A stretch of 64,000 nucleotides of DNA from a virus: IMG/VR virus record IMGVR_UViG_3300050120_000156, positions 7,714 to 71,713 of that record; one strand, given 5' to 3'. The number at the start of each line of letters is the position of its first letter. The stretch's first letter is position 1. Under the pieces are notes generated by a model. The model was not told where the DNA came from. It did no database searches and saw only the letters and a list, made by a program, of their open reading frames with translations. Made by a program: the position numbers and the translations under genes. Shown here piece after piece: positions 4,467 through 48,112 of this stretch.

Positions 4467-4526
4467 TTGTCCCGCCGAGCATTCTGCCGTAAATTGAATT
4501 GACCGAGCCCGGCGCGCCGCCGGGTT
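4467..4526 (+). promoter_or_regulatory. sigma70-like promoter plus GCGCC-loop hairpin (portal leader)
   Basis: TTGTCC-N17-TAAATT (4467-4495); CCCGGC-GCGCC-GCCGGG (4508-4524). Confidence 0.7.
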
Positions 4527-4587
4527 GATGCCTTACGCCGCTTCGCCCGCCGCCCGGGCCAGCCGCGCAACCTCAGCGGCGCGCCCC

Positions 4588-7050
4588 ATGGCAGACATCA
4601 CGATCCCGACCGATGACGGCGAAGTCTCGATCGTCGTCATCGACGCCGACGAGGCCAACGGCCAGGCGGTGATCGGGGAGGATGGCGTCTCGAGGCAGGA
4701 GACGCCGGACGGCGGCATCATCATCGACCTGGCACCCGAGGCCGACGAGCCCGACGAGAAGCCGCTGGCGTTCTACGACAACCTGCTGCCCAAGATCTCG
4801 GCCAGCACTTTGGCGACCATCGCCGACAATCTGCTGCGCGCCATCGAGGCGGACGAGCAGAGCCGGCAGGGCTGGCTGGACAACCGCGCCGAGGGCCTCG
4901 ACCTGTTGGCATTCAAGCTGGAAAAGCCCAAGGATGCCGGGCCCAGCGCCGGCGGCGGCCAAGGCATGTCGACGGTCCGCCATCCGATTCTGCAAGAGGC
5001 GGTGATCCGCTTCCAGTCGAACGCCTCGGCCGAGCTGCTGCCGACATCGGGTCCCGTCAAGGTGCGCGACGATACGCCGCCGAAGCCGCCGGCGGCGCAA
5101 ATGGCCGGCCTCGCCGCGGCGACCGGCATCCAACTGCCGCCGCCCGGCATCGGCGACAACGGCGGGCCGCCGCTCGACGAGCCGGACAGCAACCTGCTGG
5201 CCGAGGCGCTCGAAAAGGATCTCAACCACTACCTGACCGTCGTCGACCGCGGCTACCGTTCCGACACCGACCGCATGCTGTTCTGGGTCGGCTACGGCGG
5301 CTGCGCCTTCAAGAAGGTCTATCACTGCCCGATCCGGCGGATGCCGATCTCGCGCTCGGTCGACGCCAAGGATCTGATCGTCAACCACGCAGCCAACAGC
5401 ATCGAGGACTGCGGCCGGATCACCCATCGCATCATGATGCGGCGCTCCGAGCTCGCCCGCATGAAGATCGCCGGCGTCTATGTCCTGCCGCCGTCGCTGT
5501 TGTCGCAGAACGCGACGCCAACGCCGAACCAATACGACGACAAGATGAAGGAGGCGCAGGGCTTCACCTCGACATCATCGTCGAGCCCGGAGGACCAGCC
5601 TTACGAGATACTCGAATGCTACTGCGAGCTCAACATTCCGGGGCTCGAGCACGAGCTCGACGGCGAGCCCAGCGGTCTCGATCTGCCGTATCGCGTCACG
5701 ATCGAGCGCGAAACCAAGACCATCATCGAGGTGCGGCGGAACTGGCGCGAGGACGACGAGCAGTGCATCGCGAAACAGGTCTTCGTCAAATTTCCCTTCG
5801 TGCCGGCCGACGGCTTCTATGAGATCGGCCTCCTCAACATCCTCGGAAACGGCACCAAGGCGCTGACCGCGGCGTGGCGCATCATGTTGGACAGCGGCAT
5901 GTTCGCGTCGTTCCCAGGCTTCCTCTACGGAACGCAGGCCGGCCGGCAGCAGACCAACAACTTCATGGTGCCGCCGGGCGGCGGCGTGAAGATCGAGACC
6001 GGCGGCCAGAATATCCAGAACGTCGTGATGCCGCTGCCATACAAGTCGGTCGACCAGGGCTTCGTCGCCTTCATGGCGGCGATCGAGGCGACGCTGCAAC
6101 GGGTCGGCGGCACCGCCGAGTTGATGGTTGGTGAGGGCAAGCAGGATGCGCCGGTCGGGACGACGCTGGCGCTGATCGAGCAGGCGACGAAGATGCTGGC
6201 GGCGGTCCATATCCGGCTGCATGCCGCGCAATCGGAAGAGTTTCAGTTGCTCAAGGAGCGGTTGAAAGAGGATCCGAAGGCGTTTTTCGATGCGTTGAAG
6301 AAACGTGCATCGCATGCCTGGGAGGCCGCTGAGTTCCTCGACGCGCTGGAGACCTGCGATCTGGTGCCGGCGGCCGACCCGAACACCCCAAGCCACATGC
6401 ACCGCATCATGAAGGCGGTCTCGATCAAGCAGCTGCAGGGTGCGAGCCCGGGCCTCTACGATCCGAAGAAGGTCGACAGCCGCATCCTCTCCATGATCGG
6501 GGTCAGCGACCCGGAATCGCTCTTCGCGCCGGCACCGCCGGCCGGCGCGCAGCCGCCGGGACCACCGCAGGTGCCGATGGATCCGAACAAGATGGCGCAG
6601 ATCCAGGCGAAGGATCGCCAGTTGCAGCAGCAGGGCGCCGAGGCGCAGCAGGAGCTGGCGACCAAGGGCCAGATCGCCAAGAGCCAGGACACGGCGCGGC
6701 AGATGGAGGTCAACCAGGAGAGCCAGGACCGCGACGCCGACCGGAAGAGCCGCGAGAACATCGCCGCGGCGCGGGAGCGGACCGAGGCGATCCGCACCGC
6801 CGGCCAGCTCGTCGAGAAGGGCATCGATCCGAGCGACGTCCTCGAGGGTGCCGTCAAGGTGCTGGCGCCGGCGGGGTCCGATGCCTCGGCGCCGGCCGGG
6901 GTGTCGCCGCTGGGTGGTGCGCAGCAGCAGCCGCAGGCCGGTGCAGGCGGTGGTCAGGCGCAGCCCGGTCCCTTCGGTGGCCCGTTGCCCGAGGCGACGC
7001 CCAACGGCGCCCTGGCGCGGCCGCCGCAGGGGTGGACGCGGCCGATCTGA
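4588..7050 (+). CDS. portal protein with long Q/P/G-rich C-terminal extension
   Basis: HPILQEAVIRFQ, ELLPTSGPVK, GCAFKKVYH, APVGTTLALIEQ, VHIRLHAAQ, ADPNTPS are typical of this podophage portal family; start set at MADITIPT. Confidence 0.9.
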   Translation: MADITIPTDDGEVSIVVIDADEANGQAVIGEDGVSRQETPDGGIIIDLAPEADEPDEKPLAFYDNLLPKISASTLATIADNLLRAIEADEQSRQGWLDNRAEGLDLLAFKLEKPKDAGPSAGGGQGMSTVRHPILQEAVIRFQSNASAELLPTSGPVKVRDDTPPKPPAAQMAGLAAATGIQLPPPGIGDNGGPPLDEPDSNLLAEALEKDLNHYLTVVDRGYRSDTDRMLFWVGYGGCAFKKVYHCPIRRMPISRSVDAKDLIVNHAANSIEDCGRITHRIMMRRSELARMKIAGVYVLPPSLLSQNATPTPNQYDDKMKEAQGFTSTSSSSPEDQPYEILECYCELNIPGLEHELDGEPSGLDLPYRVTIERETKTIIEVRRNWREDDEQCIAKQVFVKFPFVPADGFYEIGLLNILGNGTKALTAAWRIMLDSGMFASFPGFLYGTQAGRQQTNNFMVPPGGGVKIETGGQNIQNVVMPLPYKSVDQGFVAFMAAIEATLQRVGGTAELMVGEGKQDAPVGTTLALIEQATKMLAAVHIRLHAAQSEEFQLLKERLKEDPKAFFDALKKRASHAWEAAEFLDALETCDLVPAADPNTPSHMHRIMKAVSIKQLQGASPGLYDPKKVDSRILSMIGVSDPESLFAPAPPAGAQPPGPPQVPMDPNKMAQIQAKDRQLQQQGAEAQQELATKGQIAKSQDTARQMEVNQESQDRDADRKSRENIAAARERTEAIRTAGQLVEKGIDPSDVLEGAVKVLAPAGSDASAPAGVSPLGGAQQQPQAGAGGGQAQPGPFGGPLPEATPNGALARPPQGWTRPI

Positions 7051-7089
7051 CGCCATGTTAATTTTTGCGACCAACTTTGAGGGACGGAC

Positions 7090-7533: not shown

Positions 7534-7588
7534 GATATCCGGATATCCGTATTCGACCCTTGATCGCTATGGCAATCTGCCGTAGCTT
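7534..7588 (+). promoter_or_regulatory. 14-bp palindrome (operator candidate) and leaderless promoter of HTH gene
   Basis: GATATCCGGATATC 7534-7547; TTGATC-N17-TAGCTT 7560-7588, ending 6 nt before ATG. Confidence 0.55.
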
Positions 7589-7594
7589 GCGGTC

Positions 7595-7804
7595 ATGACA
7601 TCAGAAGAACTCGAGACCGAAGGCAAGGCGATCGCCGGACCCGGCAATGAGAAGCGCTGGCAGACCGTGCTGGCGTCGCGCCTCGGCACGGATCCCGGCA
7701 CGATCAACCGCTGGTTCCACGGCCGCAACAAGATCAAGGAGGCGACGGCGATCGCGATCCGGTCGCTGGCTGCCGAGGCGCGGAAGGAGCGCGAAGCATC
7801 ATGA
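7595..7804 (+). CDS. XRE/Cro-like helix-turn-helix protein
   Basis: WQTVLASRLGTDPGTINRWFHG HTH pattern. Confidence 0.8.
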   Translation: MTSEELETEGKAIAGPGNEKRWQTVLASRLGTDPGTINRWFHGRNKIKEATAIAIRSLAAEARKEREAS

Positions 7805-9213: not shown

Positions 9214-9217
9214 CCTG

Positions 9218-9246: not shown

Positions 9247-9424
9247 CATCTTGTCATCGCGCGACCGCGCGTGTAATGATGCGCGCGGTGGTTACATTTC
9301 CGCGTGCCGTGGAAACCTCCGCTGACGCTTCGACGGCTGGAACGCTCCGGCAGCTCGACGCAAGGAATGGGTGCCTCGCTCGCCTCGAGCCGGGATGCCT
9401 GTCGCGTCGAACCGGAGCGCAGCC

Positions 9425-10336
9425 ATGAACCACGCCGACCTCCGCAAGCAAGGCCACAAGGATCACGACCGCAAGCTGCAGCACATGGCTGGCGGCGGTC
9501 ATGTCGAGCGCGGCGGCAAGGCGATGCTGGAACGCGCCATGCGCGAGGACCGCAAGGAAGATGCGGCCATGGTCAAGAAGGCCGTGGCGCAACACGAATC
9601 ACACGACCATCCCGGCAAGTCGAAGACCAAGCTGCACCTCGCGACGGGTGGCCGCGCCGAAGACGCCAAGGCGCCGGCGAGGCTCGACCGGAAGGGGTTG
9701 AAGACCGGCGGCCGCGCCAAGAAGGGCGGTCACACGAATGTCAATGTGATCGTTGCGCCCGGTCACGGTGGCCAGCCGATGCCGATCCCGGTTCCGATGG
9801 GTGCCGGGCCCGGCGGTCCGCCGCCGATGATGCCGCCGCCGGGTGCCGGTGGTCCGCCGCCCGGTTTGGGTGGGCCGCCTCCGGGCATGGGCGCCATGCC
9901 GCCCCGTCCGATGCCGGGTCCGCCCGTCGGCGCCGGCGTCCCCGGCATGGGGATGCGAGCTCGCGGTGGCCGCGCCGGCTACAAGGCCGGCGGCGCCGTC
10001 GACGGCGATCAAGAGAACAAGCCTGCGACCGGCAAGGGCCGCGGCGACCAAGTCGGCGGTGCCGGCGGTGCCGAGGGTCGCCTCGAGAAGATCAAAGACT
10101 ACGGCGCGATGTCCGACAAGGTCGAGCGGAAACGCGGTGGCCGCACCGGGCGCGACATGGGCGGTGCCGCCGACATGAAGGATGTCGCCGGCTCGGCGCC
10201 GTCCAGCGGCGCGCCGAACGCGCCGACGGGGCCGGGGAGTGCGTCCATGGGCAAGGATGCGCCGGCGGCGGCGAAGCCGATCGATGCGAATTCTCCCATC
10301 CTGGGCGCGCCGCACCGCCGCGGCGGTCGCGCCTGA
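9425..10336 (+). CDS. basic Gly/Pro-rich protein with repeated xxGGR(A/T) motifs (probable head-internal protein)
   Basis: GGAG SD; ATGGRA, KTGGRA, ARGGRA, KAGGAV, KRGGRT, RRGGRA. Confidence 0.8.
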   Translation: MNHADLRKQGHKDHDRKLQHMAGGGHVERGGKAMLERAMREDRKEDAAMVKKAVAQHESHDHPGKSKTKLHLATGGRAEDAKAPARLDRKGLKTGGRAKKGGHTNVNVIVAPGHGGQPMPIPVPMGAGPGGPPPMMPPPGAGGPPPGLGGPPPGMGAMPPRPMPGPPVGAGVPGMGMRARGGRAGYKAGGAVDGDQENKPATGKGRGDQVGGAGGAEGRLEKIKDYGAMSDKVERKRGGRTGRDMGGAADMKDVAGSAPSSGAPNAPTGPGSASMGKDAPAAAKPIDANSPILGAPHRRGGRA

Positions 10337-10551
10337 TGGCAGGCGATCGCGTCACCTCGGCGCCGCGCGGCAGTTGGCCCGACGCGCCGAAGGGCAACCA
10401 GGACGCGCTCCCCTGCGCGCCGCCGGAAGCCGCCGCCGACTACTACAAGAATCTCGACATCAACTCGGCGCGGGACAAGGCGAACGCCCGCGTCGCCGGT
10501 GTCGCGCAGTACAAGACCGGCGGCGAGCCCGGCCAGGGGAAGCGCCGCTGA
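10336..10551 (+). CDS. hypothetical protein (YKTGG motif)
   Basis: TGATG coupling; MAGDRVTSAP. Confidence 0.7.
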   Translation: MAGDRVTSAPRGSWPDAPKGNQDALPCAPPEAAADYYKNLDINSARDKANARVAGVAQYKTGGEPGQGKRR

Positions 10552-11081
10552 TGCCGGTGAAACTCAGCGCAATTGCCGAGTTGCTGGCTCCAGCCGTGAG
10601 CCATCTCTGCCCCGGTGGATATGTCGACATCGATTTCGACACCGATACTGTCGTGATGAAGATCGGAGCACAGAGCAGGCTCCTGGCGACGCGGATCGAG
10701 GTCGATGACAACGTCTATCAGGTGCGTGCGCAGGCGCGCATCAAGGCGTTCGCCGAGGACAAGCCGGAACCGACATTCGGCCCGATGGATTTCATCGGCA
10801 TCAAGCTCGGTCCGAACGGCATCGAGCCAACCGGCAAGGTGTCCGACGCGCCGCTGACCTACTTCTTCCCGACCTCGACCATCGATCAGTGCATCGCGCT
10901 CGTCGAGAAGGCCGCGCTGGATGCCCGGGCGCCGAACGGTCTCCGCGTCATCGTCGTCCCGGTCGAGCGGAAGCGCGCCATCGTCATGGAGGCGATCAGC
11001 AAGATGCTGCACGGCTCGCCGATCGACCTGCTCGAGGGCGACTACCTCTCCATCTACGACCGCGAGAAGCCGAAGACCTGA
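10551..11081 (+). CDS. hypothetical protein
   Basis: TGATG coupling; MPVKLSAIAE. Confidence 0.75.
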   Translation: MPVKLSAIAELLAPAVSHLCPGGYVDIDFDTDTVVMKIGAQSRLLATRIEVDDNVYQVRAQARIKAFAEDKPEPTFGPMDFIGIKLGPNGIEPTGKVSDAPLTYFFPTSTIDQCIALVEKAALDARAPNGLRVIVVPVERKRAIVMEAISKMLHGSPIDLLEGDYLSIYDREKPKT

Positions 11082-11090
11082 CTGCCGACT

Positions 11091-11109
11091 GCGGGCCGCG
11101 CCGGCTCGT
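11091..11109 (+). promoter_or_regulatory. GCGCC-loop hairpin (no clear promoter)
   Basis: GCGGGCC-GCGCC-GGCTCGT in intergenic gap. Confidence 0.45.
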
Positions 11110-11135
11110 TCAACCGCCCCACGCTGGAGCACACG

Positions 11136-13467: not shown

Positions 13468-14148
13468 ATGGACGACAACACCAATGGCATCGCGCTGCCC
13501 GGTACCGAGATGGCAGCAGCGCATGCACCCAAGGCCCCCCGGAAGTCGGCACGGCCGCGCCGCTCCGCCGCCAAGAAGGTGCCGCGGCAGCCGGAACGCG
13601 ATACGCGATCGGCACCGCGGCAGGCCGCCGAGGATCCGCCGGAGCGCGTCATGCGTGCCGGCCGGCCGGCCGATGCGCGCTTCCAGCGGGCGCCGGTGCG
13701 CGAGGCGGCGGAGCCGGCGCAGCGGGAACGGCCGCGCGCCGATGGTCGCTTGACCCGCACCCGGAAGCGGTCGACCGACCCGCTCTTCATCGACAAGAAG
13801 ATCATCCCGCCGGGCTACAGCTACGAGTTCAAGGCGTTCAAGGCCTACGGTGAAGAGCAGGATGCGCATGTCCAGGGTCTGATGGAGAACCACTGGACGC
13901 CGGTGCCGAAGGGCCGCCATCCCGGCCTCGTCGTCCGTCACGGCGACCTCGTCCTGATGGAGCGGCCGGACTACCTGACGCAGGAAGCCAAGATCGAGGA
14001 TTACGAGATCGCGACGCAGCAGGTCGAGAGCGTCAACGGCAACCTCCGGACGGCGAAAGACGGGCAGGCGCCGCGCAACATCCCGGCGCTGGAGAACGTC
14101 CACAAGCACAACGTCACCTACGAGCGGTTGCCGATCCCGGAGGAGTGA
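13468..14148 (+). CDS. conserved head-module protein with Arg-rich N-terminus
   Basis: GAGGAG SD; IPPGYSYEFK...WTPVP...GDLVLMERP. Confidence 0.8.
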   Translation: MDDNTNGIALPGTEMAAAHAPKAPRKSARPRRSAAKKVPRQPERDTRSAPRQAAEDPPERVMRAGRPADARFQRAPVREAAEPAQRERPRADGRLTRTRKRSTDPLFIDKKIIPPGYSYEFKAFKAYGEEQDAHVQGLMENHWTPVPKGRHPGLVVRHGDLVLMERPDYLTQEAKIEDYEIATQQVESVNGNLRTAKDGQAPRNIPALENVHKHNVTYERLPIPEE

Positions 14149-14218: not shown

Positions 14219-14401
14219 TTGATCTCGCTAAATTCTTTTGCTAATGTTCGGTCATCGCCCCGCCCGGCGATGGTCTCAGGACCGCTCATCAACGGCGAGC
14301 CGCCGAAGATAAGCGAAATACGGTAGCCCGCCCGCTACCTCAACCCATCCCACTCCTCGCGGCGCCCGCGGTGGTCAGGATCTGACCCGCAGGGTATCGC
14401 G
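14219..14401 (+). promoter_or_regulatory. capsid-operon promoter and structured leader with CCGCCC-loop hairpins
   Basis: TTGATC-N17-TAATGT (14219-14247); CATCGCC-CCGCCC-GGCGATG (14253-14272); GGTAGC-CCGCCC-GCTACC (14322-14339). Confidence 0.6.
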
Positions 14402-17769: not shown

Positions 17770-17772
17770 GCC

Positions 17773-20467: not shown

Positions 20468-20524
20468 TTGCCGCGCTATCGCCTTCGGCGTATCATCGTT
20501 GCGGTCCTACGCGCCGTAGGCCGC
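20468..20524 (+). promoter_or_regulatory. promoter plus GCGCC-loop hairpin
   Basis: TTGCCG-N17-TATCAT; CCTAC-GCGCC-GTAGG extended by GCGG/CCGC. Confidence 0.75.
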
Positions 20525-20581: not shown

Positions 20582-21790
20582 ATGGGCAGCCCTTCAGGAG
20601 TCAGCAGCTACAATCCGCCCTTGTCGGATCTCGGCCTTGAGGCTTTCAGCCGGATTCAGATCCGGCCCGGCATGCTGACGCCCAATCACATGCGCGATCT
20701 TCTGTCGTCGGCCCAGCTTCTGCTCGTCGAATGGTCGACCAAGCCGGATCTCCCCAACTTGTGGAAGATGCAGCTGAACAGCGTGCAGCTCGTCCAGGGG
20801 ACGCCGAGCTATACCGTGCCGCGGAATGTCGTCGGCATCCTCGACTATTACGTCCGCCAGTATCAGATGGGCGGGCCGGTCAACCTGACGCCGGTCTTCT
20901 CGACCGTGCAGAACTCGCCGGTGGTGACGATCACGGATCCGCAGAGCGGTGCCGTGCCTGGCGCCTTCATCTCGATCGGCGTCCCAGTCGCGGTCGGCGG
21001 TCTTGTCCTGCTCGGATTCTACCCGGTCGTTTCGGTGATCGACCCGGATCATTTCACGGTGACCGCGGCGAGCTCGGCGACGGCGACGGTCAACAACGGC
21101 GGTGCCGTCCCGGTCTTCACGACGGTCGCCGGGGCGTCCTCGGTCAACGTCCATCTCGCCAACCATGGGCTCTACCCGCAGCAGAATTTCGCGGTGCAGG
21201 TGCCGACGCAGGTCGATGGCGTCGTCCTGCAGGGCATCTATCCTGTCGCGACGGTGGTCGACGCCAACAACTTCACGATCGTCGCCAGCGTGGCGGGCTC
21301 GCCGGCGACCGCATCTGAGAATGGCGGTCAGACGCAGATCTCGATCTCGCTGCCGGAGACGCCGCCGTCGAGCCAGGGCTACACCGACTTCGTCATTACG
21401 CCGATCAGCCGCACCGAATACGCCGATCAGCCGCGGAAGAAGGACCAGGCGCGGCCGACGACGGTCTGGTGGAACCGCCAGATCGATTCGGTGCTGACGA
21501 TGTGGCCGGTGCCGGATCAGGGTCCATATACCCTCTTTTATTGGGCTCTTGTTCAAATACAAGACGCGGCTCTTGCTGGTGGCACTACCCTTGATTTGCC
21601 ATACAGGTTCTTGGAAGCTTTTACTGCCGGATTGGCAGCAAAACTTGCTGAAAAATATCCTCCTCCGCCGCCCAATACGATCGAACGGCTTGAGGCGCGA
21701 GCGGCAATGCAATGGCAGCAGGTGAGTTCGCAGGATAGCGAGGATGTGCCGCTCTACATCACGCCTGCCTTGGGCAGCTATTTTCGTTGA
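20582..21790 (+). CDS. head-tail adaptor / tail tubular protein A-like with inserted tandem beta modules
   Basis: EAFSRIQI...NLWK...ISRTEY...KKDQARPT..W..R...WPVPD...DLPYRFLEAFTAGLA. Confidence 0.8.
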   Translation: MGSPSGVSSYNPPLSDLGLEAFSRIQIRPGMLTPNHMRDLLSSAQLLLVEWSTKPDLPNLWKMQLNSVQLVQGTPSYTVPRNVVGILDYYVRQYQMGGPVNLTPVFSTVQNSPVVTITDPQSGAVPGAFISIGVPVAVGGLVLLGFYPVVSVIDPDHFTVTAASSATATVNNGGAVPVFTTVAGASSVNVHLANHGLYPQQNFAVQVPTQVDGVVLQGIYPVATVVDANNFTIVASVAGSPATASENGGQTQISISLPETPPSSQGYTDFVITPISRTEYADQPRKKDQARPTTVWWNRQIDSVLTMWPVPDQGPYTLFYWALVQIQDAALAGGTTLDLPYRFLEAFTAGLAAKLAEKYPPPPPNTIERLEARAAMQWQQVSSQDSEDVPLYITPALGSYFR

Positions 21791-21848: not shown

Positions 21849-22787
21849 ATGCACATCGTCTATCTCGCCACCAACTTGGTAAACGGCAAGACCTACATTG
21901 GCGTCACGTCGCGCCCGCTCGCGGTTCGTGCTGCGCACCATGCCCGCGCGAAGGATCGTCGCACGCCGGTCTGGCACGCGATCCGGAAATACGGTCGAGA
22001 CATGATCCGATTTCGCGTCGTGAAGGTCTGCGATTCGAGGGACGATGCTTTTGCCGAAGAGATCAGGCTGATTGCACTTTGGAAGCCGGAATATAATCGG
22101 ACTGCTGGCGGCGAAGGATCACCTGGGCATATCCTCTCGGCAGAGGCGAGAAAGAAGATCGGCGATGCTCACAGAGGGCAGTCAAATCCCGACACCATGC
22201 GAGCCATGAGATCACCTGAGGCGATCGCCAAGGCAAAGGCCACACGGCTCGCCAACGGCACCGTTCCGCGTCATTGGCTCGGTAAGAAGCGTGATCCTGA
22301 GATGGTTCGCGCCAGTGCCGAGAAACAACGAAAGAACGGTCACTACGACAGGCTTCGTGCGCTATATGCCAAGCCCGTCAGATGCCTCAACGATGGCGTC
22401 GTCCACGCTTCGCTCGGGGACGCGGCGCGATGCTACTGCGTATCGAAGCGGCGCGTTTTAGCGGTTTGCAACGGCCAAACTTTAGCGGTGAAGGGCTTCC
22501 ATTTTGAGTACGTCGGTGCCGCTGATGAACAGATCGTTCTTTCCCCGGAACGCCGCGCCGCATGGCTGACGCAGCAGGCTGAAATCCGCGACCGCGCAAA
22601 TGATAAAAATAGGCGTCCCGTTATCTGCCTGACCGATGGAGCGGTGTATCCTAGCGTGTCGGCTGCCGCTGATTTCTATGGTTGCGACAAGGCAACCCTA
22701 GGAGCTTTGTGCCTCGGCAAAAGGGGGCGGAAAAGCCTGCGCGGTCGTCGCTTCGCCTTCGTCGATACTATGGCGGAGGCAGCCTAG
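21849..22787 (+). CDS. GIY-YIG homing endonuclease with NUMOD3/NUMOD1-like DNA-binding repeats
   Basis: IVYLATNLVNGKTYIGVT...R...AIRKYG...EEI..I...YNRTAGGEG; two PV.CL.DG.V..S repeats. Confidence 0.9.
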   Translation: MHIVYLATNLVNGKTYIGVTSRPLAVRAAHHARAKDRRTPVWHAIRKYGRDMIRFRVVKVCDSRDDAFAEEIRLIALWKPEYNRTAGGEGSPGHILSAEARKKIGDAHRGQSNPDTMRAMRSPEAIAKAKATRLANGTVPRHWLGKKRDPEMVRASAEKQRKNGHYDRLRALYAKPVRCLNDGVVHASLGDAARCYCVSKRRVLAVCNGQTLAVKGFHFEYVGAADEQIVLSPERRAAWLTQQAEIRDRANDKNRRPVICLTDGAVYPSVSAAADFYGCDKATLGALCLGKRGRKSLRGRRFAFVDTMAEAA

Positions 22788-23996: not shown

Positions 23997-24053
23997 TTGC
24001 CCGCCACGCCCTGTCGCCGTATGATGGCGTCACCACGTCGGCGCGCCGCCGAC
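23997..24053 (+). promoter_or_regulatory. promoter plus GCGCC-loop hairpin
   Basis: TTGCCC-N17-TATGAT; GTCGGC-GCGCC-GCCGAC. Confidence 0.75.
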
Positions 24054-29017: not shown

Positions 29018-30049
29018 ATGATCTCCGCCAGCGAACTCAGGGAAATTCTGCATTATGATCCTCTGTCGGGAGAGTTTCGGTGGCGGGTAACTCGCGGCTC
29101 TTCACGGGCTGGTGATCTCGCTGGATCTGTCGGTGCCAATGGTTACCGACGCATCAGCCTCGGGAAAAAATCTTACCAAGCCTACAGGCTTGCGTGGCTC
29201 TATGTTTACGGTAAATGGCCGCTCGGCTGGGTTGACCATCGGAGTCGACAGAAGTCCGACGACAGGATTGCAAATCTCCGCGATGCGACACCGCAGCAAA
29301 GCGCCATCAACAGACATCACGGCACGCCTAATAAGTATGGGTTGATGGGGGTTTCAAAAAAGGGGGGGAAGTGGGTAGCAAAAATCCGTGATGGTGAGAA
29401 TCGGCGCTACCTTGGTACATACAATACTGCGGAAGAAGCTAACGCATCTTTTGAAAAAGCCCGCGCGATGCTTCACGGAGAGTTTGCAGAAGCCGAAGCT
29501 TGTGGGGAAATATGCCCATCTGATCCTTGGTCGCCAGAGAAGCGCTTGACGGAATTGACGGCAGAAGGGCTGCGGTCTCTTCTCGATTACGATCCTGCGA
29601 CTGGCCTCTTCCGATGGAGAGACTCCCGCACGAACGTGAAGGCCGGCAGCGTCGCCGGAACGATCTCGCGTTACGGCTATAGGATATTGTCGCTCAGCGT
29701 CGGCGGAAAGAAGCGCAAGTACCTTTCCGGAAGACTGGTGTGGCTCTACGTCCACGGCGCGTGGCCGGTTGACGAGATCGACCATATCAATGGGGTAAGG
29801 GATGACGACAGGCTAAGCAATCTACGCGAAGCCAACCGAGACCAGCAGATGGCTAATCGGCGTTGTCACTTGCGGAGCAAATCCCAGTTAAAGGGGGTCG
29901 AGAGCCACCATTCCGGAAAATGGTCGGCGCGAATTTGTGTCTTCAAAAAGAGAATCTACATCGGCAATTTTGACACGCCGGAAGAGGCGTCGTGGGCCTA
30001 CCGCGTGCATGCTGAATTTTACCATGGCGAATTTGTGAGGACGGCATGA
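29018..30049 (+). CDS. homing endonuclease with two tandem HNH-AP2 units
   Basis: Two copies of L..LL.YDP..G.FRW...R.L.WLYV.G.WP...DH....DDR..NLR.A followed by AP2-like G...GKW.A.I...Y.G...T.EEA. Confidence 0.9.
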   Translation: MISASELREILHYDPLSGEFRWRVTRGSSRAGDLAGSVGANGYRRISLGKKSYQAYRLAWLYVYGKWPLGWVDHRSRQKSDDRIANLRDATPQQSAINRHHGTPNKYGLMGVSKKGGKWVAKIRDGENRRYLGTYNTAEEANASFEKARAMLHGEFAEAEACGEICPSDPWSPEKRLTELTAEGLRSLLDYDPATGLFRWRDSRTNVKAGSVAGTISRYGYRILSLSVGGKKRKYLSGRLVWLYVHGAWPVDEIDHINGVRDDDRLSNLREANRDQQMANRRCHLRSKSQLKGVESHHSGKWSARICVFKKRIYIGNFDTPEEASWAYRVHAEFYHGEFVRTA

Positions 30050-30594
30050 CGGGCACCACGGCTCTGAAAATCAGCGAGGGGGCGCGGCCCGATGCAGGCC
30101 TGCCGATCGCCGCCGTGCCGACGGTGCGCCTCGCGATGCCGACGGACAGCGACGAGATCCTCGAGCTGCTCAAGATCCGCAACGCCGAGGAACGCCGAGG
30201 TCCGATGGATGTCGACAAGGTGATGGATGCCGTCACCGCCGGGATCTGCCGCCGTGGTGCCCTGATCGGCATCATCCGCGGTGCCTCCCGCATCGTCGCC
30301 TCGATCGGCCTCTACCTCGATCGTGACTGGGACAGCGCCGTACCGCTGGTGAAGAGCCGCTGGGACTTCGTCCATCCCGAACACCGCCGCAAGACGACGC
30401 ATGCCCGCGACCTCATCACCTTCGCGAAATACGCCGCCGGCGAGATGGGCTGCCCGCTCGAGATGGTGCAGACCGAGAATCCGGACACCGCCGAGAAGGT
30501 CAAGATGGTCGGCCGCCAGATGCCGCTCGGGGCCAAGATCTTCATCGTGCTGCCGACGGCGCCGAGCTACCACCTGGATCCTCCGCAAGGCTAA
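30046..30594 (+). CDS. GNAT-like acetyltransferase fold protein
   Basis: VRLAMPTD..EI; FVHPEHRRK..A..LI.FAK. Confidence 0.7.
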   Translation: MTGTTALKISEGARPDAGLPIAAVPTVRLAMPTDSDEILELLKIRNAEERRGPMDVDKVMDAVTAGICRRGALIGIIRGASRIVASIGLYLDRDWDSAVPLVKSRWDFVHPEHRRKTTHARDLITFAKYAAGEMGCPLEMVQTENPDTAEKVKMVGRQMPLGAKIFIVLPTAPSYHLDPPQG

Positions 30595-30611
30595 CCCGTT
30601 CCGCTCCATGA

Positions 30612-30669
30612 TTGCGCCGTTTCTCGCGTCGCGGTAGACTACAGCCAACAGCTCGGCGCGCCGTCGGGC
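30612..30669 (+). promoter_or_regulatory. promoter plus GCGCC-loop hairpin
   Basis: TTGCGC-N17-TAGACT; GCTCGGC-GCGCC-GTCGGGC. Confidence 0.7.
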
Positions 30670-30727: not shown

Positions 30728-31243
30728 ATGCCCGACGGCGAAGCCTTCCATCTCCGAACCACCGACCGACCGGCGACGGTCCGCATGGCGACCGCTGCGG
30801 ACGAAGAGCCGCTGTTCGACCTCCTGTTCGAGATGTACGGCGAGAATGCCATCGGTGGTCATCCGGTCAGCCGCGACAAGGTGATGGCGGCGATCCGCAA
30901 GGGCACCCGGCAGCAAGGCACCTTCATCGGCGTCATCGATGGGCCGGATGGTCGGCCGGCGGCGTCCATGGCGCTCGAGCTGACCGATTACTGGTATTCC
31001 GACGATTGGTTCCTGCATGAGCGCTGGCTGTTCGTGCGCGGCGATAGCCGGCATAGCCGGTACGACGAGGCGCTGTTCCGCTGGGCCGACGGTATCCGGC
31101 GCGATATGGGCCAGCGCACCGGCCAGCGCTGGGAGATCGTGATGGCCTTCTGGACGCCGGCACGGCTCGCCGCGAAGCTGCGGCTCTGGGGGCGCTACGC
31201 CCGGCAGGTCGGCGGCGTGTTCATCATGGACGGGGACCGCTGA
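30728..31243 (+). CDS. GNAT-like acetyltransferase fold protein (paralogue of previous)
   Basis: VRMATAADE; YWYSDD.FL.E.WLFV..DSR.SR...LFRWA; KLRLW.R....VGGVF. Confidence 0.75.
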   Translation: MPDGEAFHLRTTDRPATVRMATAADEEPLFDLLFEMYGENAIGGHPVSRDKVMAAIRKGTRQQGTFIGVIDGPDGRPAASMALELTDYWYSDDWFLHERWLFVRGDSRHSRYDEALFRWADGIRRDMGQRTGQRWEIVMAFWTPARLAAKLRLWGRYARQVGGVFIMDGDR

Positions 31244-31342: not shown

Positions 31343-34300
31343 ATTTCTGGTGGCGGGACTAACACAAATACTGTCCAGTCAGCGCCTCCGCAGCAGGTGC
31401 TGGACGCCTACTCCGCTGCGCAGGCGAAGGCGACTTCTGCCGCGTCGGCGCCCTTGCAGCAATACACCGGCAACACCGTCGCCGGCTTCACGCCGGACCA
31501 GACTGCGGCGATGCAGACGATCGACAATTCGCAGGGCATCGCGCAGCCCTACATCAACCAGGCGGCTGGATATGCCGCGAATGCCGCGACGCCAATCACG
31601 CCGACCGCCTTCTCGCCGGCGGCGGTCTCGCAATACGAATCGCCCTACACCTCGCAGGTCGTCAATGCGACCGAAGCGCAGATGCAGAACATGGACGCGC
31701 AGCAGCAGCAGGGGGTTGTCGGCAACGCGATCTCCAAGGGCGCCTGGGGCGGGGACCGTGCCGGCATCGCGCAGGCCGAGCTCTCGAACCAGCAGGATCT
31801 CGCCAACAACCAGACCATCGCCGGGCTCGAGAATTCCGGCTATACGCAGGCGCTCGGCGAGTTCAACCAGCAGCAGACGACCGGCGTCAATGCGCAGACC
31901 GCCTCGGACTGGCTGAATGCCAACGCCGCCTCGACCTATGGTGCCCTCGGCAACGAGGCGCAGAACACGGCGCTGACCGGCGCGTCGGCGCAGATGCAGT
32001 CCGGTACCGCGCAGCAGACGCTGGCGCAGGAGAATCTCAACGTCCCCTATCAGCAGTTCTTGCAGCAGCAGGCCTATCCGTTCCAGACCTCGCAGTTTCA
32101 GACGCAAGCGGCGACCGGGCTGTCGAATCAAGGCGGCGGATCGACGTCGACATCGCCGGGCGCCGACACCACCGGTCAGACGATTGGCACCTTGGCCTCG
32201 ATCGCCGCGCTCGCCGCCATGGCCTATGAGCGTGGTGGCGCCGTCAAGCCGCGTGGCTTCGATACCGGCGGCAACGTCTTCGGTGCCGGTTTCAAGTTGC
32301 CGGCCGTTCCCGGCGCCTCGGTCAATATCGTGCCCGGGCCGATGAACCTTCCCGGCGGTGGCGGCAGCAACGGCGGCATCCCGGCGCCGCCGCAGGCACC
32401 GGTGGCCGGCAGCGGTGCGGGCGGCGGTTCCAACCCGAGCGCGGCGCTGGTGGGGCTAGGCAAGGAGATCAAGGACGCCAAGGTGCAGAGCGCGGCGCAG
32501 CAGGCGAAGATAGATGCCAATTCCAATGATGGCTTCGGTTCCAAATCGGTGCCTGACCAGTCGCTGTACGGCAAGCCGCCGGTTCCCGACGTGATGACGA
32601 CTGGCAACACGAATTTCAGCGACCCGTCGATGTTCGGCGATATGTACGGGGGCGCCGATATTGGTGCCGCCGGCGCCGGTGCTGATGCCGGGGCTGCGGC
32701 CGATGCCTCCGTCGCCAGCGATGCGATGATGGTGGCGGCGGCGCGTGGCGGCGTCATCCGTCGCCACGGCTTCGATGCTGGCGGCGATGTCCAGGATGCG
32801 GGCCTGATCGCGGCCGGTGTCCCGGATGCCATGGGCGGATCGCCGATCGCCAACAGCCAATTGCAGCGCTATCAGGGGATGTCTCCGGAGCAACTTCAGG
32901 AGATGTCGCAGCGCATCCCGTCGTCCTCGCCGCAGAGCCAGATCGTAAATCGCGCGCTGATGGCGGCGCGGATGAAGCCGTCATCGACCGCGGTGCAGCC
33001 GGTCGCCAAGGGAGCGCCCAGCGTCGCAGGCATGGCTCCGGTGGCGCCGACGGTGGCGAGCGCGGCCGGCGTCCAGCCGCAGCAGGGCCAGCCGCAGCAG
33101 CCGCAACAGCAGGGCCAGCAGATGGGCAGCTATGGTCCCTACCGCCGCGGCGGCCCTGTGGGTTTTGCGGATGGTGGCATGCCGGGTCTTCCCTCGTACA
33201 TGAACCCGACCAGCATGCCAGGCGCCGGCGTTTCGATCCCGGGTGCCGCTGCATCGGCGCTGCGCCGCGGCGGCATCGCGCGCGGCTTCGATGATGGCGG
33301 CCCGGTCGACGATGCTGATCTCGACGGTATCGGCGATCTTTATGCCGGGGGCTATTCGCCGCCACGGTATGTGCCGGTGCAGAAGGGCGAGCAGCCGGCG
33401 CTCGAAACCGGAGCATGGCTGCGCGGCACTGCCGGCGATGTCGGCACGTCGATCGGTGACGCCGCCTCGGCGCTGTTGAACAAGGACAATTCCTCGGTGC
33501 ATTACGGGCTCGGCGATAATTTCGGCGCGGATGCCGTACCGTCGCAAGCGGCGAAGGGTAAGCCGCCAGCACCGCCGGAGGGCGCGCCGGCCGACCTTTC
33601 CGGGATCGGCGATGTCTACGCCGATCCGCGCGGTGCGATTCCGGCTGGGATCGATCTCTCCGGGATCGGCGATCTCTATGGCGGCAGCGCTGCCGTGCCG
33701 GCGCGCGGGCTCTCGGCGCCGCCGCCAGACGATGTTGTCATGCCGGCTGGTCGCAAGCCTTCGGCGCCTCGGCTTGCATCGGCGATGCCTGCCGGGATCT
33801 CTGCGCCGCCGGCCGGGCTGGCACCGCCGCCGTCAGGCCTCGACGACGATCTCGATGATACCGTTCCGTCGCAGGCGCTTGAAGGCAAGCCGCCGATCCC
33901 GGACGATACGGCGCCGCAACCTGACCTCTCCGGCAAGCCGGCGAGCGCGCTGAGCCCGGCCGGAGGCAAGCCTGCGGCGGCTGCGGCATCTTCGGATGCG
34001 GCCGCGCCGGACAAGGGCGGTACGGCATGGAACGATCAAAGCATCTGGATGCCGATCCTGGCGGCCGGTCTCGGGGCGATGTCGTCGCACAACACCACGG
34101 CGCTTGGCGTTCTCGGCGAGGGCGGCTTGCGCGGCCTCGAGTACATGAGCGCGTCGCAGAAGGCTGCGCTCGAGGCGAAGAAAGCCGCCAGCGACGACAC
34201 CTACCGTCAAGGCGAGCTCGCCAACTCGTCGCAGAAGAACCAGCAGGACGCGAAACGGCTCGACCAGGAAGCCGATCGCTACCGGGGGACGCTGGGCGAG

Positions 34301-34960
34301 ACGACGCGCCACAACCAAGCCGATGAGATCCTGAAAGGCCAGCAGCAGCAGCAGACTGCGACGTATCAGCAAGGGATGCTGGACCGCGGCAAGTTCACGG
34401 TGGTTGCTGGCACAGGCACCGATGAAAATGGCAACACTGTTCCTGGTGCCTATGAGGTCGACTCGGTCAACAAAACATCGACGTTCCGGCCAGGCATGGT
34501 GCTGACCGGCAAGCCCGGCGGTGGACAGGGTCAGAGGGCGGCGCTGGCCGACATACTGATGAAACCGGGTCAGCATGGAGAGACGCCAGCGGCCGCGACG
34601 CTAACGCAGGCGTTGGCGATGCTCGATGATCCGACCGGAAAACACGCCGCGCAGATACAGAATGCGCGGGACAGTCTCGCGGCACGCGAGGCGATGGCGG
34701 ATGTCGGTTATGTCTCCGATCCGCTTGGGACGCTCGACAAATACCGGGCTCATAATGGCCTCCCGCCGGCACCAGGGGCGCAGCCGAGCGCCGCGGCACC
34801 GCAGCAGCGGCCGGCGGCGGCTCCGGCCCAGCGGCAGGCTCCCGGCCCGACCTTCCCGGCGATGCCGGCTGGTGTTCCGGCTGGCGCGCAATTCAGCCCC
34901 TCGAAAAATTCGTGGTGGTGGCAGCAAAATGGGAAGTGGCAATCTGCGCCCGGTGGTTGA
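31343..34960 (+). CDS. DNA ejection / pilot internal virion protein; probable ATT start
   Basis: TAAGGAG 7 nt before in-frame ATT-SGGGTNTNTVQSAPP; YTG..VAGFTPDQ..A, YESPYT.QVV, GAWGGDRAGI; many (F/Y)xxGG motifs. Confidence 0.85.
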   Translation: MSGGGTNTNTVQSAPPQQVLDAYSAAQAKATSAASAPLQQYTGNTVAGFTPDQTAAMQTIDNSQGIAQPYINQAAGYAANAATPITPTAFSPAAVSQYESPYTSQVVNATEAQMQNMDAQQQQGVVGNAISKGAWGGDRAGIAQAELSNQQDLANNQTIAGLENSGYTQALGEFNQQQTTGVNAQTASDWLNANAASTYGALGNEAQNTALTGASAQMQSGTAQQTLAQENLNVPYQQFLQQQAYPFQTSQFQTQAATGLSNQGGGSTSTSPGADTTGQTIGTLASIAALAAMAYERGGAVKPRGFDTGGNVFGAGFKLPAVPGASVNIVPGPMNLPGGGGSNGGIPAPPQAPVAGSGAGGGSNPSAALVGLGKEIKDAKVQSAAQQAKIDANSNDGFGSKSVPDQSLYGKPPVPDVMTTGNTNFSDPSMFGDMYGGADIGAAGAGADAGAAADASVASDAMMVAAARGGVIRRHGFDAGGDVQDAGLIAAGVPDAMGGSPIANSQLQRYQGMSPEQLQEMSQRIPSSSPQSQIVNRALMAARMKPSSTAVQPVAKGAPSVAGMAPVAPTVASAAGVQPQQGQPQQPQQQGQQMGSYGPYRRGGPVGFADGGMPGLPSYMNPTSMPGAGVSIPGAAASALRRGGIARGFDDGGPVDDADLDGIGDLYAGGYSPPRYVPVQKGEQPALETGAWLRGTAGDVGTSIGDAASALLNKDNSSVHYGLGDNFGADAVPSQAAKGKPPAPPEGAPADLSGIGDVYADPRGAIPAGIDLSGIGDLYGGSAAVPARGLSAPPPDDVVMPAGRKPSAPRLASAMPAGISAPPAGLAPPPSGLDDDLDDTVPSQALEGKPPIPDDTAPQPDLSGKPASALSPAGGKPAAAAASSDAAAPDKGGTAWNDQSIWMPILAAGLGAMSSHNTTALGVLGEGGLRGLEYMSASQKAALEAKKAASDDTYRQGELANSSQKNQQDAKRLDQEADRYRGTLGETTRHNQADEILKGQQQQQTATYQQGMLDRGKFTVVAGTGTDENGNTVPGAYEVDSVNKTSTFRPGMVLTGKPGGGQGQRAALADILMKPGQHGETPAAATLTQALAMLDDPTGKHAAQIQNARDSLAAREAMADVGYVSDPLGTLDKYRAHNGLPPAPGAQPSAAAPQQRPAAAPAQRQAPGPTFPAMPAGVPAGAQFSPSKNSWWWQQNGKWQSAPGG

Positions 34961-48021: not shown

Positions 48022-48054
48022 ACGCCTGACGTTCAGTCGACTGTTCCAAATCCA

Positions 48055-48112
48055 TTGTAACGATAAGCAACCGTTGGTATCTTCGCGGTGACAGTGACGG
48101 GCGCGCCGCCCG
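48055..48112 (+). promoter_or_regulatory. lysis-cassette promoter plus GCGCC-loop hairpin
   Basis: TTGTAA-N17-TATCTT; CGGGC-GCGCC-GCCCG. Confidence 0.7.

What the first reader, a model, noticed from the sequence alone, without database searches (positions are those of the whole stretch)
4467..48112. Promoter-proximal C(GCGCC)G pentaloop hairpin regulon across the morphogenesis and lysis genes (candidate boxB-like RNA control system)
Seen: five intergenic sigma70-type promoters, all TTGnnn-N17-TAnnnT (4467, 20468, 23997, 30612, 48055). They precede the portal, adaptor, fibre, GNAT/ejection and lysis genes. Each is followed, 19/15/18/18/20 nt after the -10 box, by the identical loop GCGCC closed by C-G. 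The stems differ but all pair: CCCGGC/GCCGGG, CCTAC/GTAGG, GTCGGC/GCCGAC, GCTCGGC/GTCGGGC, CGGGC/GCCCG. A sixth copy sits at 11091-11109. Fixed loop, covarying stems, G-U pairs and fixed distance from the start site indicate selection on an RNA structure. Most downstream genes lack a canonical SD; three have AGCGG there instead. Known: lambda nut boxB is a pentaloop hairpin bound by Arg-rich N, and HK022 put RNAs act directly on RNA polymerase. Inference: an undescribed phage antitermination, attenuation or translational switch that times late genes from host-type promoters. Alternatively, the loop pairs with GGCG(C/T) near the start codon (e.g. 4578, 20576, 30721). Arg-rich ORFs at 4143, 13468 and 37697 are candidate binders (speculative).
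Basis: partly seen in the sequence, partly recalled or inferred. Interest (0 to 1): 0.85.

Follow-up and report, generated by a model that had tools for sequence, protein, structure and literature searches.

The report
Conserved leader hairpins after phage promoters
A temperate phage from peat starts five of its virion-gene operons with a host-type promoter followed by a small RNA hairpin that always has the same loop, a lineage-specific control signal whose reader and effect are still unknown.

Summary
In the 71.7-kb phage record, 5 of 12 plus-strand TTGNNN-N16-18-TANNNT matches are followed 15-20 nt later by a C[GCGCC]G loop with 5-8 flanking pairs. 300 dinucleotide shuffles gave a mean of 0.01 such composites. 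A sixth copy lies at 11091-11109. A weaker seventh lies just outside the window.

One syntenic relative (G001, portal 55% identical) has the element at four homologous places and one non-homologous place, with loop GCGCY, or GUGCU at its fibre site. Two stem pairs there changed on both sides. Across 12 sites, 89.6% of stem cells pair, and there are 13 G·U against 2 A·C. This points to a sense-strand, hence RNA, hairpin under selection.

Function is not shown. I found no boxA, no sigma-pause element and no U-tracts in the leaders. Terminator-like sites are not above chance. No NusG or Q family gene was found. This weakens classical antitermination.

Start regions of the hairpin-led genes are enriched in sequence complementary to the hairpin core, but not in a cognate-specific way. 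My best guess is a factor-recognised leader hairpin that controls translation or stability. The element is absent from Rfam and from more distant relatives.

The parts
4467..4495 (+). Sigma-70-type promoter S1 (TTGTCC-N17-TAAATT), upstream of the portal gene (ATG at 4588)
   Evidence: Portal: PHROG 1216 and homologues. Not listed by the stricter scan.
4506..4526 (+). Hairpin S1, CCCGGC-GCGCC-GCCGGG with two outer pairs
   Evidence: 8 pairs; 29.0 bits; -16.5 kcal/mol.
4574..4587 (+). Second copy of the GGCGCGCC core directly before the portal ATG. It can pair with the hairpin core.
   Evidence: duplex -31.9 kcal/mol; 0 of 80 control start regions as good. A GCGCGCC copy is also present before the portal ATG of G001.
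11091..11109 (+). Hairpin S6, GCGGGC-C[GCGCC]G-GCTCGT. It is intergenic, after the stop codon at 11081, and has no promoter of this type upstream.
   Evidence: 26.9 bits. In runs X2/X3 position 11091 reads A instead of G, which turns the outer G·U into A-U, and no other change is listed from 11092 to 11110.
14357..14371 (+). Variant hairpin in the capsid-operon leader. It has the same GCGCC loop but a G-C closing pair. It lies beside two CCGCCC-loop hairpins (14250-14275, 14322-14339).
Evidence: Not among the matches that model R1 listed (E up to 10).
20468..20496 (+). Promoter S2 (TTGCCG-N17-TATCAT), upstream of the 402-aa gene at 20582
   Evidence: 9 of 12 matches.
20506..20520 (+). Hairpin S2, CCTAC-GCGCC-GTAGG
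   Evidence: 24.5 bits. The relative in X2/X3 aligns at 80% or more only from 20502 onward.
23997..24025 (+). Promoter S3 (TTGCCC-N17-TATGAT), upstream of the 309-aa gene at 24112 (fibre-like by position; no family hit)
24037..24053 (+). Hairpin S3, GTCGGC-GCGCC-GCCGAC
   Evidence: 28.9 bits.
30612..30640 (+). Promoter S4 (TTGCGC-N17-TAGACT), upstream of the small gene at 30728 and the 1187-aa ejection-type protein
   Evidence: PHROG 4287 for 31397-34960.
30651..30669 (+). Hairpin S4, GCTCGGC-GCGCC-GTCGGGC, with two G·U pairs
   Evidence: 28.7 bits. In X2/X3 the 50 nt from 30593 to 30642 do not align but 30643 onward does.
48055..48083 (+). Promoter S5 (TTGTAA-N17-TATCTT), directly after the 4341-aa polyvalent protein gene
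48098..48112 (+). Hairpin S5, CGGGC-GCGCC-GCCCG
   Evidence: 22.9 bits.
3595..4146 (+). 183-aa gene, 320 nt upstream of promoter S1 with the 104-aa ORF 4143-4457 between them. It is 50% identical in G001 at the same place. It is a speculative candidate regulator.
   Evidence: 10 homologues only; pLDDT 73.8; best hits are MarR-type winged-helix proteins, but E is 0.045 or worse, so none is significant.

Best explanation
The element is a cis-acting RNA stem-loop transcribed at or near the 5' end of five virion-gene operons from host sigma-70-type promoters. It also occurs at one or two internal sites. Its invariant C-G closing pair and GCGCY loop are the recognition surface for an unidentified trans-acting factor, of phage or host. 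The stem needs only to pair.

Most likely mode of action (inferred, not shown): post-initiation control of the leader. The hairpin core, which contains the self-complementary GGCGCGCC, competes with, or is matched by, a second GC-rich copy in the translation start region. Formation or factor binding of the 5' hairpin would then set whether the start region is open. It would also cap the 5' end against decay. This would give one common switch for genes that are needed late and in low copy number.

Shown: the motif, its excess over chance, its covariation, its strand bias, its conservation in a relative, and the class-level complementarity to start regions.

Inferred: that it is transcribed, that a factor binds it, and what the effect is.
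For: 1. Non-random composite: 5 observed against a mean of 0.01 in 300 shuffles.
2. Structure under selection: 5 of 8 pairs change on both sides, 89.6% of cells pair, and no shuffle reached this on four of the five measures (53 of 500 did on pairs that change on both sides). Slid controls give 25-63.5%.
3. Sense-strand bias: 13 G·U against 2 A·C. All 11 sites in the two phages lie on the gene strand.
4. Loop and closing pair: C13, G16, C17 and G19 are invariant and G14 and C15 are at least 90% conserved in 12 sites, while the stems vary.
5. Independent recovery: a pattern with no stem requirement hit 45 IMG/VR stretches. The 2 from the syntenic relative have stems of 7 and 5 pairs. Only 1 of the other 43 reaches 5 pairs.
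6. Orthologous places in G001 (ejection-protein, post-giant-gene, portal and fibre leaders), with double compensatory changes: C-G to A-T in S4 versus G1e, and G-C to C-G in S5 versus G1l. The surrounding leaders are only 40-52% identical.
7. Start regions of the 9 hairpin-led genes pair with hairpin regions at -20 to -29 kcal/mol, against -18.2 +/- 4.3 for 46 other genes (Mann-Whitney p = 8e-5; 1e-4 after regression on GC). MFE folds of 6 of 10 leaders pair the hairpin region with the start region.
8. There are no terminators to antiterminate.
Against: - There are no transcript data at all. No RNA run holds the sequence, so even transcription of the hairpins is inferred from promoter matches. 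Only 2 of the 5 promoters pass the stricter scan.
- The complementarity to start regions is not cognate-specific (permutation p = 0.13). It rests on a GC-rich palindromic core, so it could reflect a shared motif and not pairing.
- Forcing the hairpin raises predicted start-region accessibility only slightly (0.22-0.40 to 0.25-0.41; it rises in 6 of 9 leaders).
- Equilibrium folding of the whole leader disfavours the hairpin in 8 of 9 leaders.
- Three G001 leaders have ordinary GGAG Shine-Dalgarno sequences, so absence of an SD is not part of the system.
- No candidate RNA-binding protein was identified.
- Several of the 12 sites were found by looking for hairpins, which inflates the pairing counts.
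- Only two full genomes and one fragment carry the element.
Confidence: 0.4

Rival explanations
1. Processive antitermination site (nut-, put- or LoaP-like). A factor binds the nascent hairpin, rides with RNA polymerase and suppresses Rho-dependent or non-canonical termination in the C-rich untranslated leaders and the long operons, which include a 13-kb gene.
For: - The position close to the promoter is fixed: the loop starts 15-20 nt after the -10.
- The loop is invariant and the stems covary, as expected for a protein-bound hairpin.
- The leaders after S1-S4 are C-rich and SD-poor: C is 40-51% against 32.5% for the strand. This suits Rho loading.
- The operons are long.
- Copies without a promoter (11091; genome 93-111) recall nutR, which lies within an operon (recalled).
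- LoaP needs a small hairpin that is nearly identical in two leaders (PMC12691694, abstract and passages read).
Against: - Terminator-like sites are at chance level: 13 against 12.5, 12 against 11.6, and 11 against 9.9.
- No T run of 4 or more, no boxA-like word and no -10-like pause element occurs in the five leaders.
- The one strong canonical terminator (51904-51929) ends the whole plus-strand block, so the host does use U-tract terminators.
- No NusG, Phage_antitermQ or Antiterm domain occurs in either phage record. The records are 82% and 89% complete.
- Each operon has its own promoter.
- Rho dependence cannot be tested here.
Confidence: 0.25
2. PeSL-like mobile regulatory cassette. The promoter-plus-stem-loop unit mainly serves as a portable expression signal and as a short homology that mediates module exchange between related phages. 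The hairpin would act as an insulator or attenuator for read-through from upstream.
For: - PeSLs of T4-type phages are sigma-70 promoters joined to stem-loops. One subclass has the stem-loop downstream of the -10. They recombine to shuffle genes (PMC2839356, abstract and passages read).
- In the roughly 90%-identical relative in runs X2/X3, homology at 80% or more resumes at 20502 and at 30643, a few nt after the -10 of S2 and S4. It stops at 30592, so those promoters are replaced while the hairpins are kept.
- The S2 leader shares GGCCGCTGATC with the G001 leader of a different gene.
- S2 follows a 2.7-kb stretch that G001 lacks.
- Other promoters of this phage have stems across their spacer or -10 (7566-7586; 28052 by eye).
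Against: - PeSL stem-loops are effective terminators. Here there is no U-tract and the loop sequence is conserved, which recombination or termination alone does not require.
- Compensatory stem changes with a fixed loop point to recognition of the folded RNA.
- The X2/X3 breakpoints are read from a table of aligned pieces. The contig sequence itself was not visible.
Confidence: 0.15
3. DNA-level operator. A phage regulator, for example the conserved 183-aa protein with a possible winged helix, binds the double-stranded core (C)GGCGCGCC(G) just downstream of the start site and represses or gates the late promoters in the lysogen.
For: - GGCGCGCC is a perfect 8-bp palindrome, present in 4 of 5 window sites and 2 of 5 G001 sites.
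- The phage is temperate (integrase) and must silence five host-type promoters.
- The 183-aa protein, 320 nt upstream of S1 with one ORF between, is shared with G001. Its best fold matches are MarR-type DNA binders.
- The position around +10 to +20 suits a roadblock.
Against: - The palindrome is not conserved in S2, S6, G1 portal, G1 v or G1 fibre, whereas the hairpin register is.
- Sliding the partner to the palindrome register gives 63.5% pairing against 89.6%.
- The arms covary and do not keep a half-site sequence.
- G·U exceeds A·C by 13 to 2, which has no meaning for duplex DNA.
- The fold matches are not significant (E 0.045 or worse; no hit at 0.001 or better).
Confidence: 0.1
4. Plain 5' stabiliser hairpins spread by duplication. 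The loop is alike only because the copies are recent.
For: 5'-terminal stem-loops protect mRNAs from 5'-end-dependent decay (established for ompA and for the T7 gene 10 leader; recalled, not read here). Leaders S1-S3 share other blocks, CAGCCGC...AGCGG, which suggests a common origin.
Against: The stems have diverged at most positions, with compensation, while the 7-nt C-loop-G stays fixed across two phages whose proteins are only about 50-60% identical. Neutral loops would have drifted.
Confidence: 0.08

Closest known systems
PeSL cassettes (promoter-early stem-loop) of T4-type phages (PMC2839356, passages read; PMC4122927, search listing only)
   Same: Both are repeated intergenic composites of a sigma-70-type promoter and an adjacent stem-loop. 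One PeSL subclass has the stem-loop after the -10. Both sit at module boundaries, and there are signs of exchange at the cassette.
   Different: PeSL stem-loops are poly-G/poly-C terminators, precede early ORFans and lack a conserved loop. Here the loop is fixed, the stems covary, there is no U-tract, the genes are virion genes of a temperate phage, and only 5-7 copies exist.
Lambda/P22 nut boxB with N protein (features recalled, not read here)
   Same: A short hairpin with a pentaloop in the leader RNA. The loop sequence is conserved and the stem is free to vary. It occurs both near promoters and inside operons.
   Different: The loop is GCGCY and not GNRA-like. There is no boxA. The sites head structural operons and not early ones. 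No N-like protein is shared by the two phages. There are no terminators to override.
LoaP (specialised NusG paralogue) and the UNCG hairpin of the dfn and mln leaders (PMC12691694, abstract and passages read)
   Same: A small hairpin that is nearly identical in the 5' leaders of several long operons and is required for factor action after initiation.
   Different: A UNCG tetraloop; intrinsic NusA-dependent terminators in the leaders; the factor is a NusG paralogue. No NusG domain occurs in either phage.
5' stem-loop of T7 late mRNAs and the ompA-type 5' stabilisers (recalled)
   Same: A hairpin at or near the 5' end of transcripts from a set of late promoters.
   Different: Those act through structure alone. 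Here a sequence-specific loop is conserved, and a matching motif recurs at the start codons.
Mu Com / mom translational activation, and MS2-type coat-operator hairpins (recalled)
   Same: A protein-recognised hairpin in a leader that decides whether the start region is open.
   Different: Those are single-gene systems. No homologous protein was found here. This is a multi-operon set.

Membership tests
Lambda-type nut site (boxA + boxB, N protein) | boxB hairpin with a GNRA-like pentaloop (GAAAA or GACAA; recalled) | tested here: not met
   The loop is GCGCC in 7 of 12 sites, GCGCT in 2 and other in 3.
Lambda-type nut site (boxA + boxB, N protein) | boxA word (CGCUCUUA-like; recalled) next to the hairpin | tested here: not met
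   No GCTCTT or CTCTT in any of the five leaders. The host's own boxA is unknown.
Lambda-type nut site (boxA + boxB, N protein) | Small Arg-rich N-type protein encoded by the phage | tested here: inconclusive
   The 104-aa ORF 4143-4457 has an Arg-rich tail but no counterpart in G001. No N-family model was searched.
Q-type late antitermination (qut) | Q protein gene | tested here: not met
   PF06530 and PF03589 are absent from G000 and G001. The records are 82% and 89% complete.
Q-type late antitermination (qut) | Sigma-dependent pause element (-10-like) in the initially transcribed region, and a terminator downstream | tested here: not met
   No TANNNT and no T run of 4 or more in the five leaders. 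Terminator-like sites are at chance level.
LoaP / NusG-paralogue leader hairpin | NusG-family factor | tested here: not met
   PF02357 is absent from both phage records. A host paralogue cannot be tested because the host is unknown.
PeSL (T4-type promoter-stem-loop cassette) | Sigma-70-like promoter physically joined to a stem-loop and repeated between genes | tested here: met
PeSL (T4-type promoter-stem-loop cassette) | The stem-loop works as a transcription terminator | not testable with these tools
   No U-tract follows any copy. The activity would need an assay.
PeSL (T4-type promoter-stem-loop cassette) | Recombination between cassettes shuffles the flanked genes | tested here: inconclusive
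   Homology breaks at S2 and S4 in the X2/X3 relative, and one leader is shared between non-orthologous genes. This rests on one relative, and its sequence was not visible.
Intrinsic (Rho-independent) terminator | GC-rich hairpin followed by a U-tract | tested here: not met
   None of the sites is listed by the terminator scan. The tails are TTGATG, CCGCTG, CGCCAT, ACCTGC and GGCGAA.
N4-type hairpin promoter for a virion RNA polymerase | Phage-encoded single-subunit RNA polymerase inside the giant virion protein | tested here: not met
   Pfam hits on the 4341-aa protein are InPase, LPD1, ART-PolyVal and a weak LPD5. No polymerase domain was found.
Any Rfam family | Match at the gathering threshold | tested here: not met
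   0 matches in the whole window.

The most novel reading that the evidence does not exclude
A previously undescribed phage 'late regulon' run at the RNA level. One sequence-specific RNA-binding factor reads an invariant C[GCGCY]G hairpin at the head of every low-copy virion and exit operon. Through competition between that hairpin and a matching GC-rich word at the start codon, it switches translation (and message survival) of all of them at once. This would let a temperate phage keep five constitutive host-type promoters harmless in the lysogen without a repressor at each one.
Probability: 0.2. Interest if true: 0.8.

Novelty: new variant of a known kind. Interest (0 to 1): 0.55.

Why it matters
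Late-gene timing in temperate phages is textbook for the lambda (Q), P2 (Ogr) and Mu (C) types. It is almost unexplored in the uncultivated soil and peat phages that dominate metagenomes. This lineage appears to mark its virion operons with a common leader RNA signal instead of a special promoter. If a factor reads that hairpin, it would be a new handle on how such phages avoid late-gene leakage in lysogens. It would also be a compact, orthogonal RNA tag and reader pair. Even without a known mechanism, the motif can be used as an annotation marker for operon starts in this lineage.

Tried and rejected
- **Chance GC-rich palindrome.** Rejected by the shuffles and by the independent recovery in G001.
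- **N4-like hairpin promoter.** Considered because the hairpin can be read as a 6-9-bp stem with a 3-nt loop and the phage has a giant virion protein. Rejected because that protein is a polyvalent protein without a polymerase domain, and because the purine-centred loop lies on the non-template strand.
- **RfaH ops.** The S2 leader contains GCGGTAGCG, which matches my recalled ops core. The homologous G001 leader has GCGGCTGCG instead, so I treat this as coincidence.
- **Distant relatives.**
  - A search for the exact CGCGCCG core in the 80 portal loci of 42-51% identity found no promoter-linked hairpin.
  - The upstream regions of 26 of those 80 loci were read, and none has the leader architecture.
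  - 9 of the 80 loci related to the 670-aa virion protein, plus L082, were scanned for promoter-plus-hairpin. Among them only L139, which is part of G001, has it.
  - Those loci other than L139 were also scanned for GYGCY-loop hairpins, and none lies after a promoter.
  - Model R1 over 100 of these loci (1.19 Mb) gave 5 hits of 22 bits or more. All are antisense, and the four I checked against the table lie inside portal-gene matches.
- **Searches for more close relatives.** All of these returned only G001 or chance coding hits:
  - portal protein alone in IMG/VR (none);
  - alignment A2 in JGI metagenomes (one 56%-identity fragment, L082);
  - alignment A2 in GTDB genomes (one Terracidiphilus MAG contig, identical in length to L137, without the element);
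  - the S2/G1v leader word in IMG/VR (24 hits, 1 real, which is G001);
  - the 183-aa protein alignment in IMG/VR (G001 only).
- **Expression.** No RNA holder is listed, so nothing can be said about expression.
- **Read laying.** Only the first 40 of 830 differences were shown, so the relative's bases at S2-S4 were not seen.
- **Structure lead.** The 183-aa protein gave no significant fold match. The Atlas search for the 104-aa ORF gave only scores under 0.9.
- **Cognate hairpin-to-start-codon co-evolution.** Not supported. The Fisher p of 6e-4 mixes homologous leaders and two probably mis-set G001 start codons, so I do not rely on it.
- **Other.** Supplementary files of the papers were not opened. 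Earlier-findings look-ups by sequence found nothing.

Full report
**What the window is.** The window is bases 7714-71713 of a 71,713-base virus record. CheckV rates it 82% complete and linear. It is 66% G+C, and its only full-length holder among public runs is a peat metagenome.

Genes run rightward to about 52 kb and leftward beyond that. The rightward genes include:
- a portal;
- a major head protein;
- a 670-aa virion protein;
- an ejection-type protein;
- a 4341-aa polyvalent protein with InPase, LPD1 and ART-PolyVal domains;
- two homing endonucleases.

The leftward block holds an integrase, a RecT-like protein and several DUF proteins, so the phage is temperate. Upstream of the window lie a C5-methyltransferase, an SNF2 helicase and a 981-aa protein with a weak LAGLIDADG hit. 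I read that last protein as a probable intein-bearing large terminase. This is inference only.

**The observation.** All five composites are present as described. Each promoter has a 17-nt spacer, and the loop starts 19, 15, 18, 18 and 20 nt after the -10.

In the whole genome the pattern TTGNNN-N16-18-TANNNT occurs 12 times on the plus strand, and 5 of these carry the hairpin. It occurs 3 times on the minus strand, and none carries it.

Hairpins of 5 or more pairs around CGCGCCG number 13, against 3.06 +/- 1.63 in 300 dinucleotide shuffles. Composites number 5 against a mean of 0.01.

The sixth copy, at 11091-11109, is intergenic but has no such promoter. A weaker seventh (20.9 bits) lies at genome 93-111, ahead of the first rightward genes and outside the window.

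Only the promoters at 20468 and 23997 pass the tool's stricter consensus scan.

**Relatives.** The portal family is very large (4933 hits). The leader architecture is nonetheless missing from the distant relatives I checked:
- the 80 portal loci of 42-51% identity, by a search for the exact core, with the upstream regions of 26 of them read;
- the loci related to the 670-aa protein. 9 of these plus L082 were scanned for promoter-plus-hairpin, nearly all were scanned for GYGCY-loop hairpins, and three had their genes mapped. The only one with the element is L139, which is part of G001.

A degenerate promoter-plus-core pattern without any stem requirement hit 45 IMG/VR stretches. The two from one 101-kb contig (G001) have stems of 7 and 5 pairs, against 1 of 43 others with 5 or more.

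G001 is syntenic with the window. Its portal is 55% identical, its head protein 74%, and the end of its giant protein 62%. It carries the element in five places:
- before the ejection-protein gene;
- directly after the giant gene;
- in the portal leader, with loop GCGCT;
- before the 670-aa protein gene, with loop GCGCT;
- in weakened form before the fibre gene, with loop GTGCT and one G·G mismatch.

A JGI fragment (L082) has a degenerate copy, with loop ACGCC, after a fibre promoter.

Runs X2/X3 hold a relative that is roughly 90% or more identical. The only hairpin differences visible there leave 11092-11110 untouched and turn the outer G·U pair into A-U.

**Structure.** An ungapped alignment of the 12 sites shows C13, G16, C17 and G19 invariant.
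- Counted on the 8-pair structure, 89.6% of cells pair, against 75.5% in shuffles.
- 5 of 8 pairs change on both sides.
- Sliding the partner column gives 25-63.5% pairing. The highest value comes from the overlapping GGCGCGCC palindrome.
- There are 13 G·U cells and 2 A·C cells, and both A·C cells are in the degenerate L082 copy.

This means the fold works on the sense strand only, which fits RNA and not a cruciform or a duplex protein site.

Orthologous pairs show double compensatory changes: S4 versus G1 eject, and S5 versus G1 lysis. The surrounding leaders are only 40-52% identical.

Some sites were found by searching for hairpins, so the pairing percentage is partly circular. The G001 ejection and post-giant-gene sites are free of that bias.

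Local stabilities are -10 to -16.5 kcal/mol for 11 sites and -5.1 kcal/mol for L082.

A covariance model scores the 12 sites at 22-31 bits and nothing else in the two phages above 21 bits. In 1.19 Mb of distant relatives it finds 5 hits of 22 bits or more. All are antisense, and the four I checked lie inside portal-gene matches. Rfam has no match.

**What it does.** Antitermination is the obvious analogy, but the leaders lack its usual companions:
- there is no boxA-like word, no -10-like pause element and no T run of 4 or more;
- terminator-like sites are at chance level in all three 20-kb scans;
- the only strong canonical terminator, 51904-51929, closes the whole rightward block;
- neither phage record encodes a NusG, Phage_antitermQ or Antiterm domain.

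Rho-dependent attenuation in the C-rich leaders remains possible and is untestable here.

A second feature emerged from folding. In 6 of 10 leaders the minimum-energy fold pairs the hairpin region with the start region. The portal leaders of both phages carry a second GCGCGCC word directly before the ATG.

As a class, the start regions of the 9 hairpin-led genes pair with hairpin regions better than those of 46 other genes (p = 8e-5; 1e-4 after GC correction). The match is not better for the cognate hairpin than for the others (p = 0.13). Forcing the hairpin opens the start region only slightly.

I therefore rank the explanations as follows:
1. a factor-read leader hairpin that gates translation or stability (0.40);
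2. antitermination (0.25);
3. a PeSL-like cassette role (0.15);
4. a DNA operator (0.10);
5. a plain 5' stabiliser hairpin spread by duplication (0.08).

**Cassette behaviour.**
- In the X2/X3 relative, alignment at 80% or more stops at 30592 and resumes at 30643, inside otherwise 98.6%-identical sequence.
- It also resumes at 20502 after a non-alignable stretch that begins at 17771. In both cases the promoter is replaced while the hairpin and leader are kept.
- The S2 leader shares an 11-nt block with the G001 leader of a different gene.
- S2 follows a 2.7-kb lower-GC stretch that G001 lacks.

This resembles the modular shuffling described for PeSLs (PMC2839356), but it rests on one relative whose sequence I could not read.

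**Candidate readers.** The 183-aa protein at 3595-4146 is shared with G001 at the same place, and only 10 homologues are known. It gives a medium-confidence model whose best but non-significant matches are MarR-type winged-helix proteins. The Arg-rich 104-aa ORF at 4143 is not shared. The Arg-rich 226-aa ORF at 13468 is shared. None of these is shown to bind anything.

**Verdict.** This is a real, selected, lineage-restricted leader RNA motif. It lies outside Rfam, I found no description of it in the three literature searches I ran, and its mechanism is open.

Noticed in passing
window 14219-14401: The capsid-operon leader (promoter TTGATC-N17-TAATGT) carries two hairpins with the same CCGCCC loop and different stems (14250-14275 and 14322-14339), plus a GCGCC-loop hairpin closed by G-C (14357-14371). 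The portal leader has a CCGCC-loop hairpin at 4545-4559. The G001 capsid leader has stems that I read by eye with ACGCC and UCCGCCG loops. 'CGCC' loops may form a wider family.
   Followed up: partly
window 7560-7597: Promoter TTGATC-N17-TAGCTT has a 9-bp stem (7566-7586) across its spacer and -10. The ATG of the next gene (7595) lies 7 nt after the -10, so that mRNA may be leaderless.
   Followed up: no
window 51904-51929: A strong canonical intrinsic terminator (11-bp stem, 10 G-C pairs, then TTTTT) closes the whole rightward gene block. It shows that the host uses U-tract terminators.
   Followed up: no
L081:1462-4407 (genome coordinates; upstream of the window): A 981-aa protein whose G001 homologue has only 604 aa. 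It has a weak LAGLIDADG_3 hit at residues 483-540. It is possibly an intein-containing large terminase, preceded by a Lys/Pro/Arg-rich 247-aa ORF that may be the small subunit.
   Followed up: no
window 21849-22787 and 29018-30049: Two homing-endonuclease genes (GIY-YIG-type and HNH-type) are inserted in the virion module. The first is replaced by other sequence in the X2/X3 relative.
   Followed up: partly
window 9304-11081: Two long overlapping ORFs in different frames (9304-10551 / 9371-10336 and 10182-11081) with no family hit. This could be a frameshift, an assembly error or overlapping genes.
   Followed up: no
window 48162-49085: The gene after site S5 is ambiguous. GC3 favours the 116-aa frame from 48172, but residues 122-305 of the 307-aa frame from 48162 hit PHROG 24780 at 1e-39. 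This could be a frame change or two genes. No lysis function was confirmed.
   Followed up: partly
L137 / L216: A 62-kb contig of this phage group (48% identity in the 670-aa protein) is filed within a Terracidiphilus (Acidobacteriota) MAG. This is a hint, no more, about the host range of the wider group.
   Followed up: no
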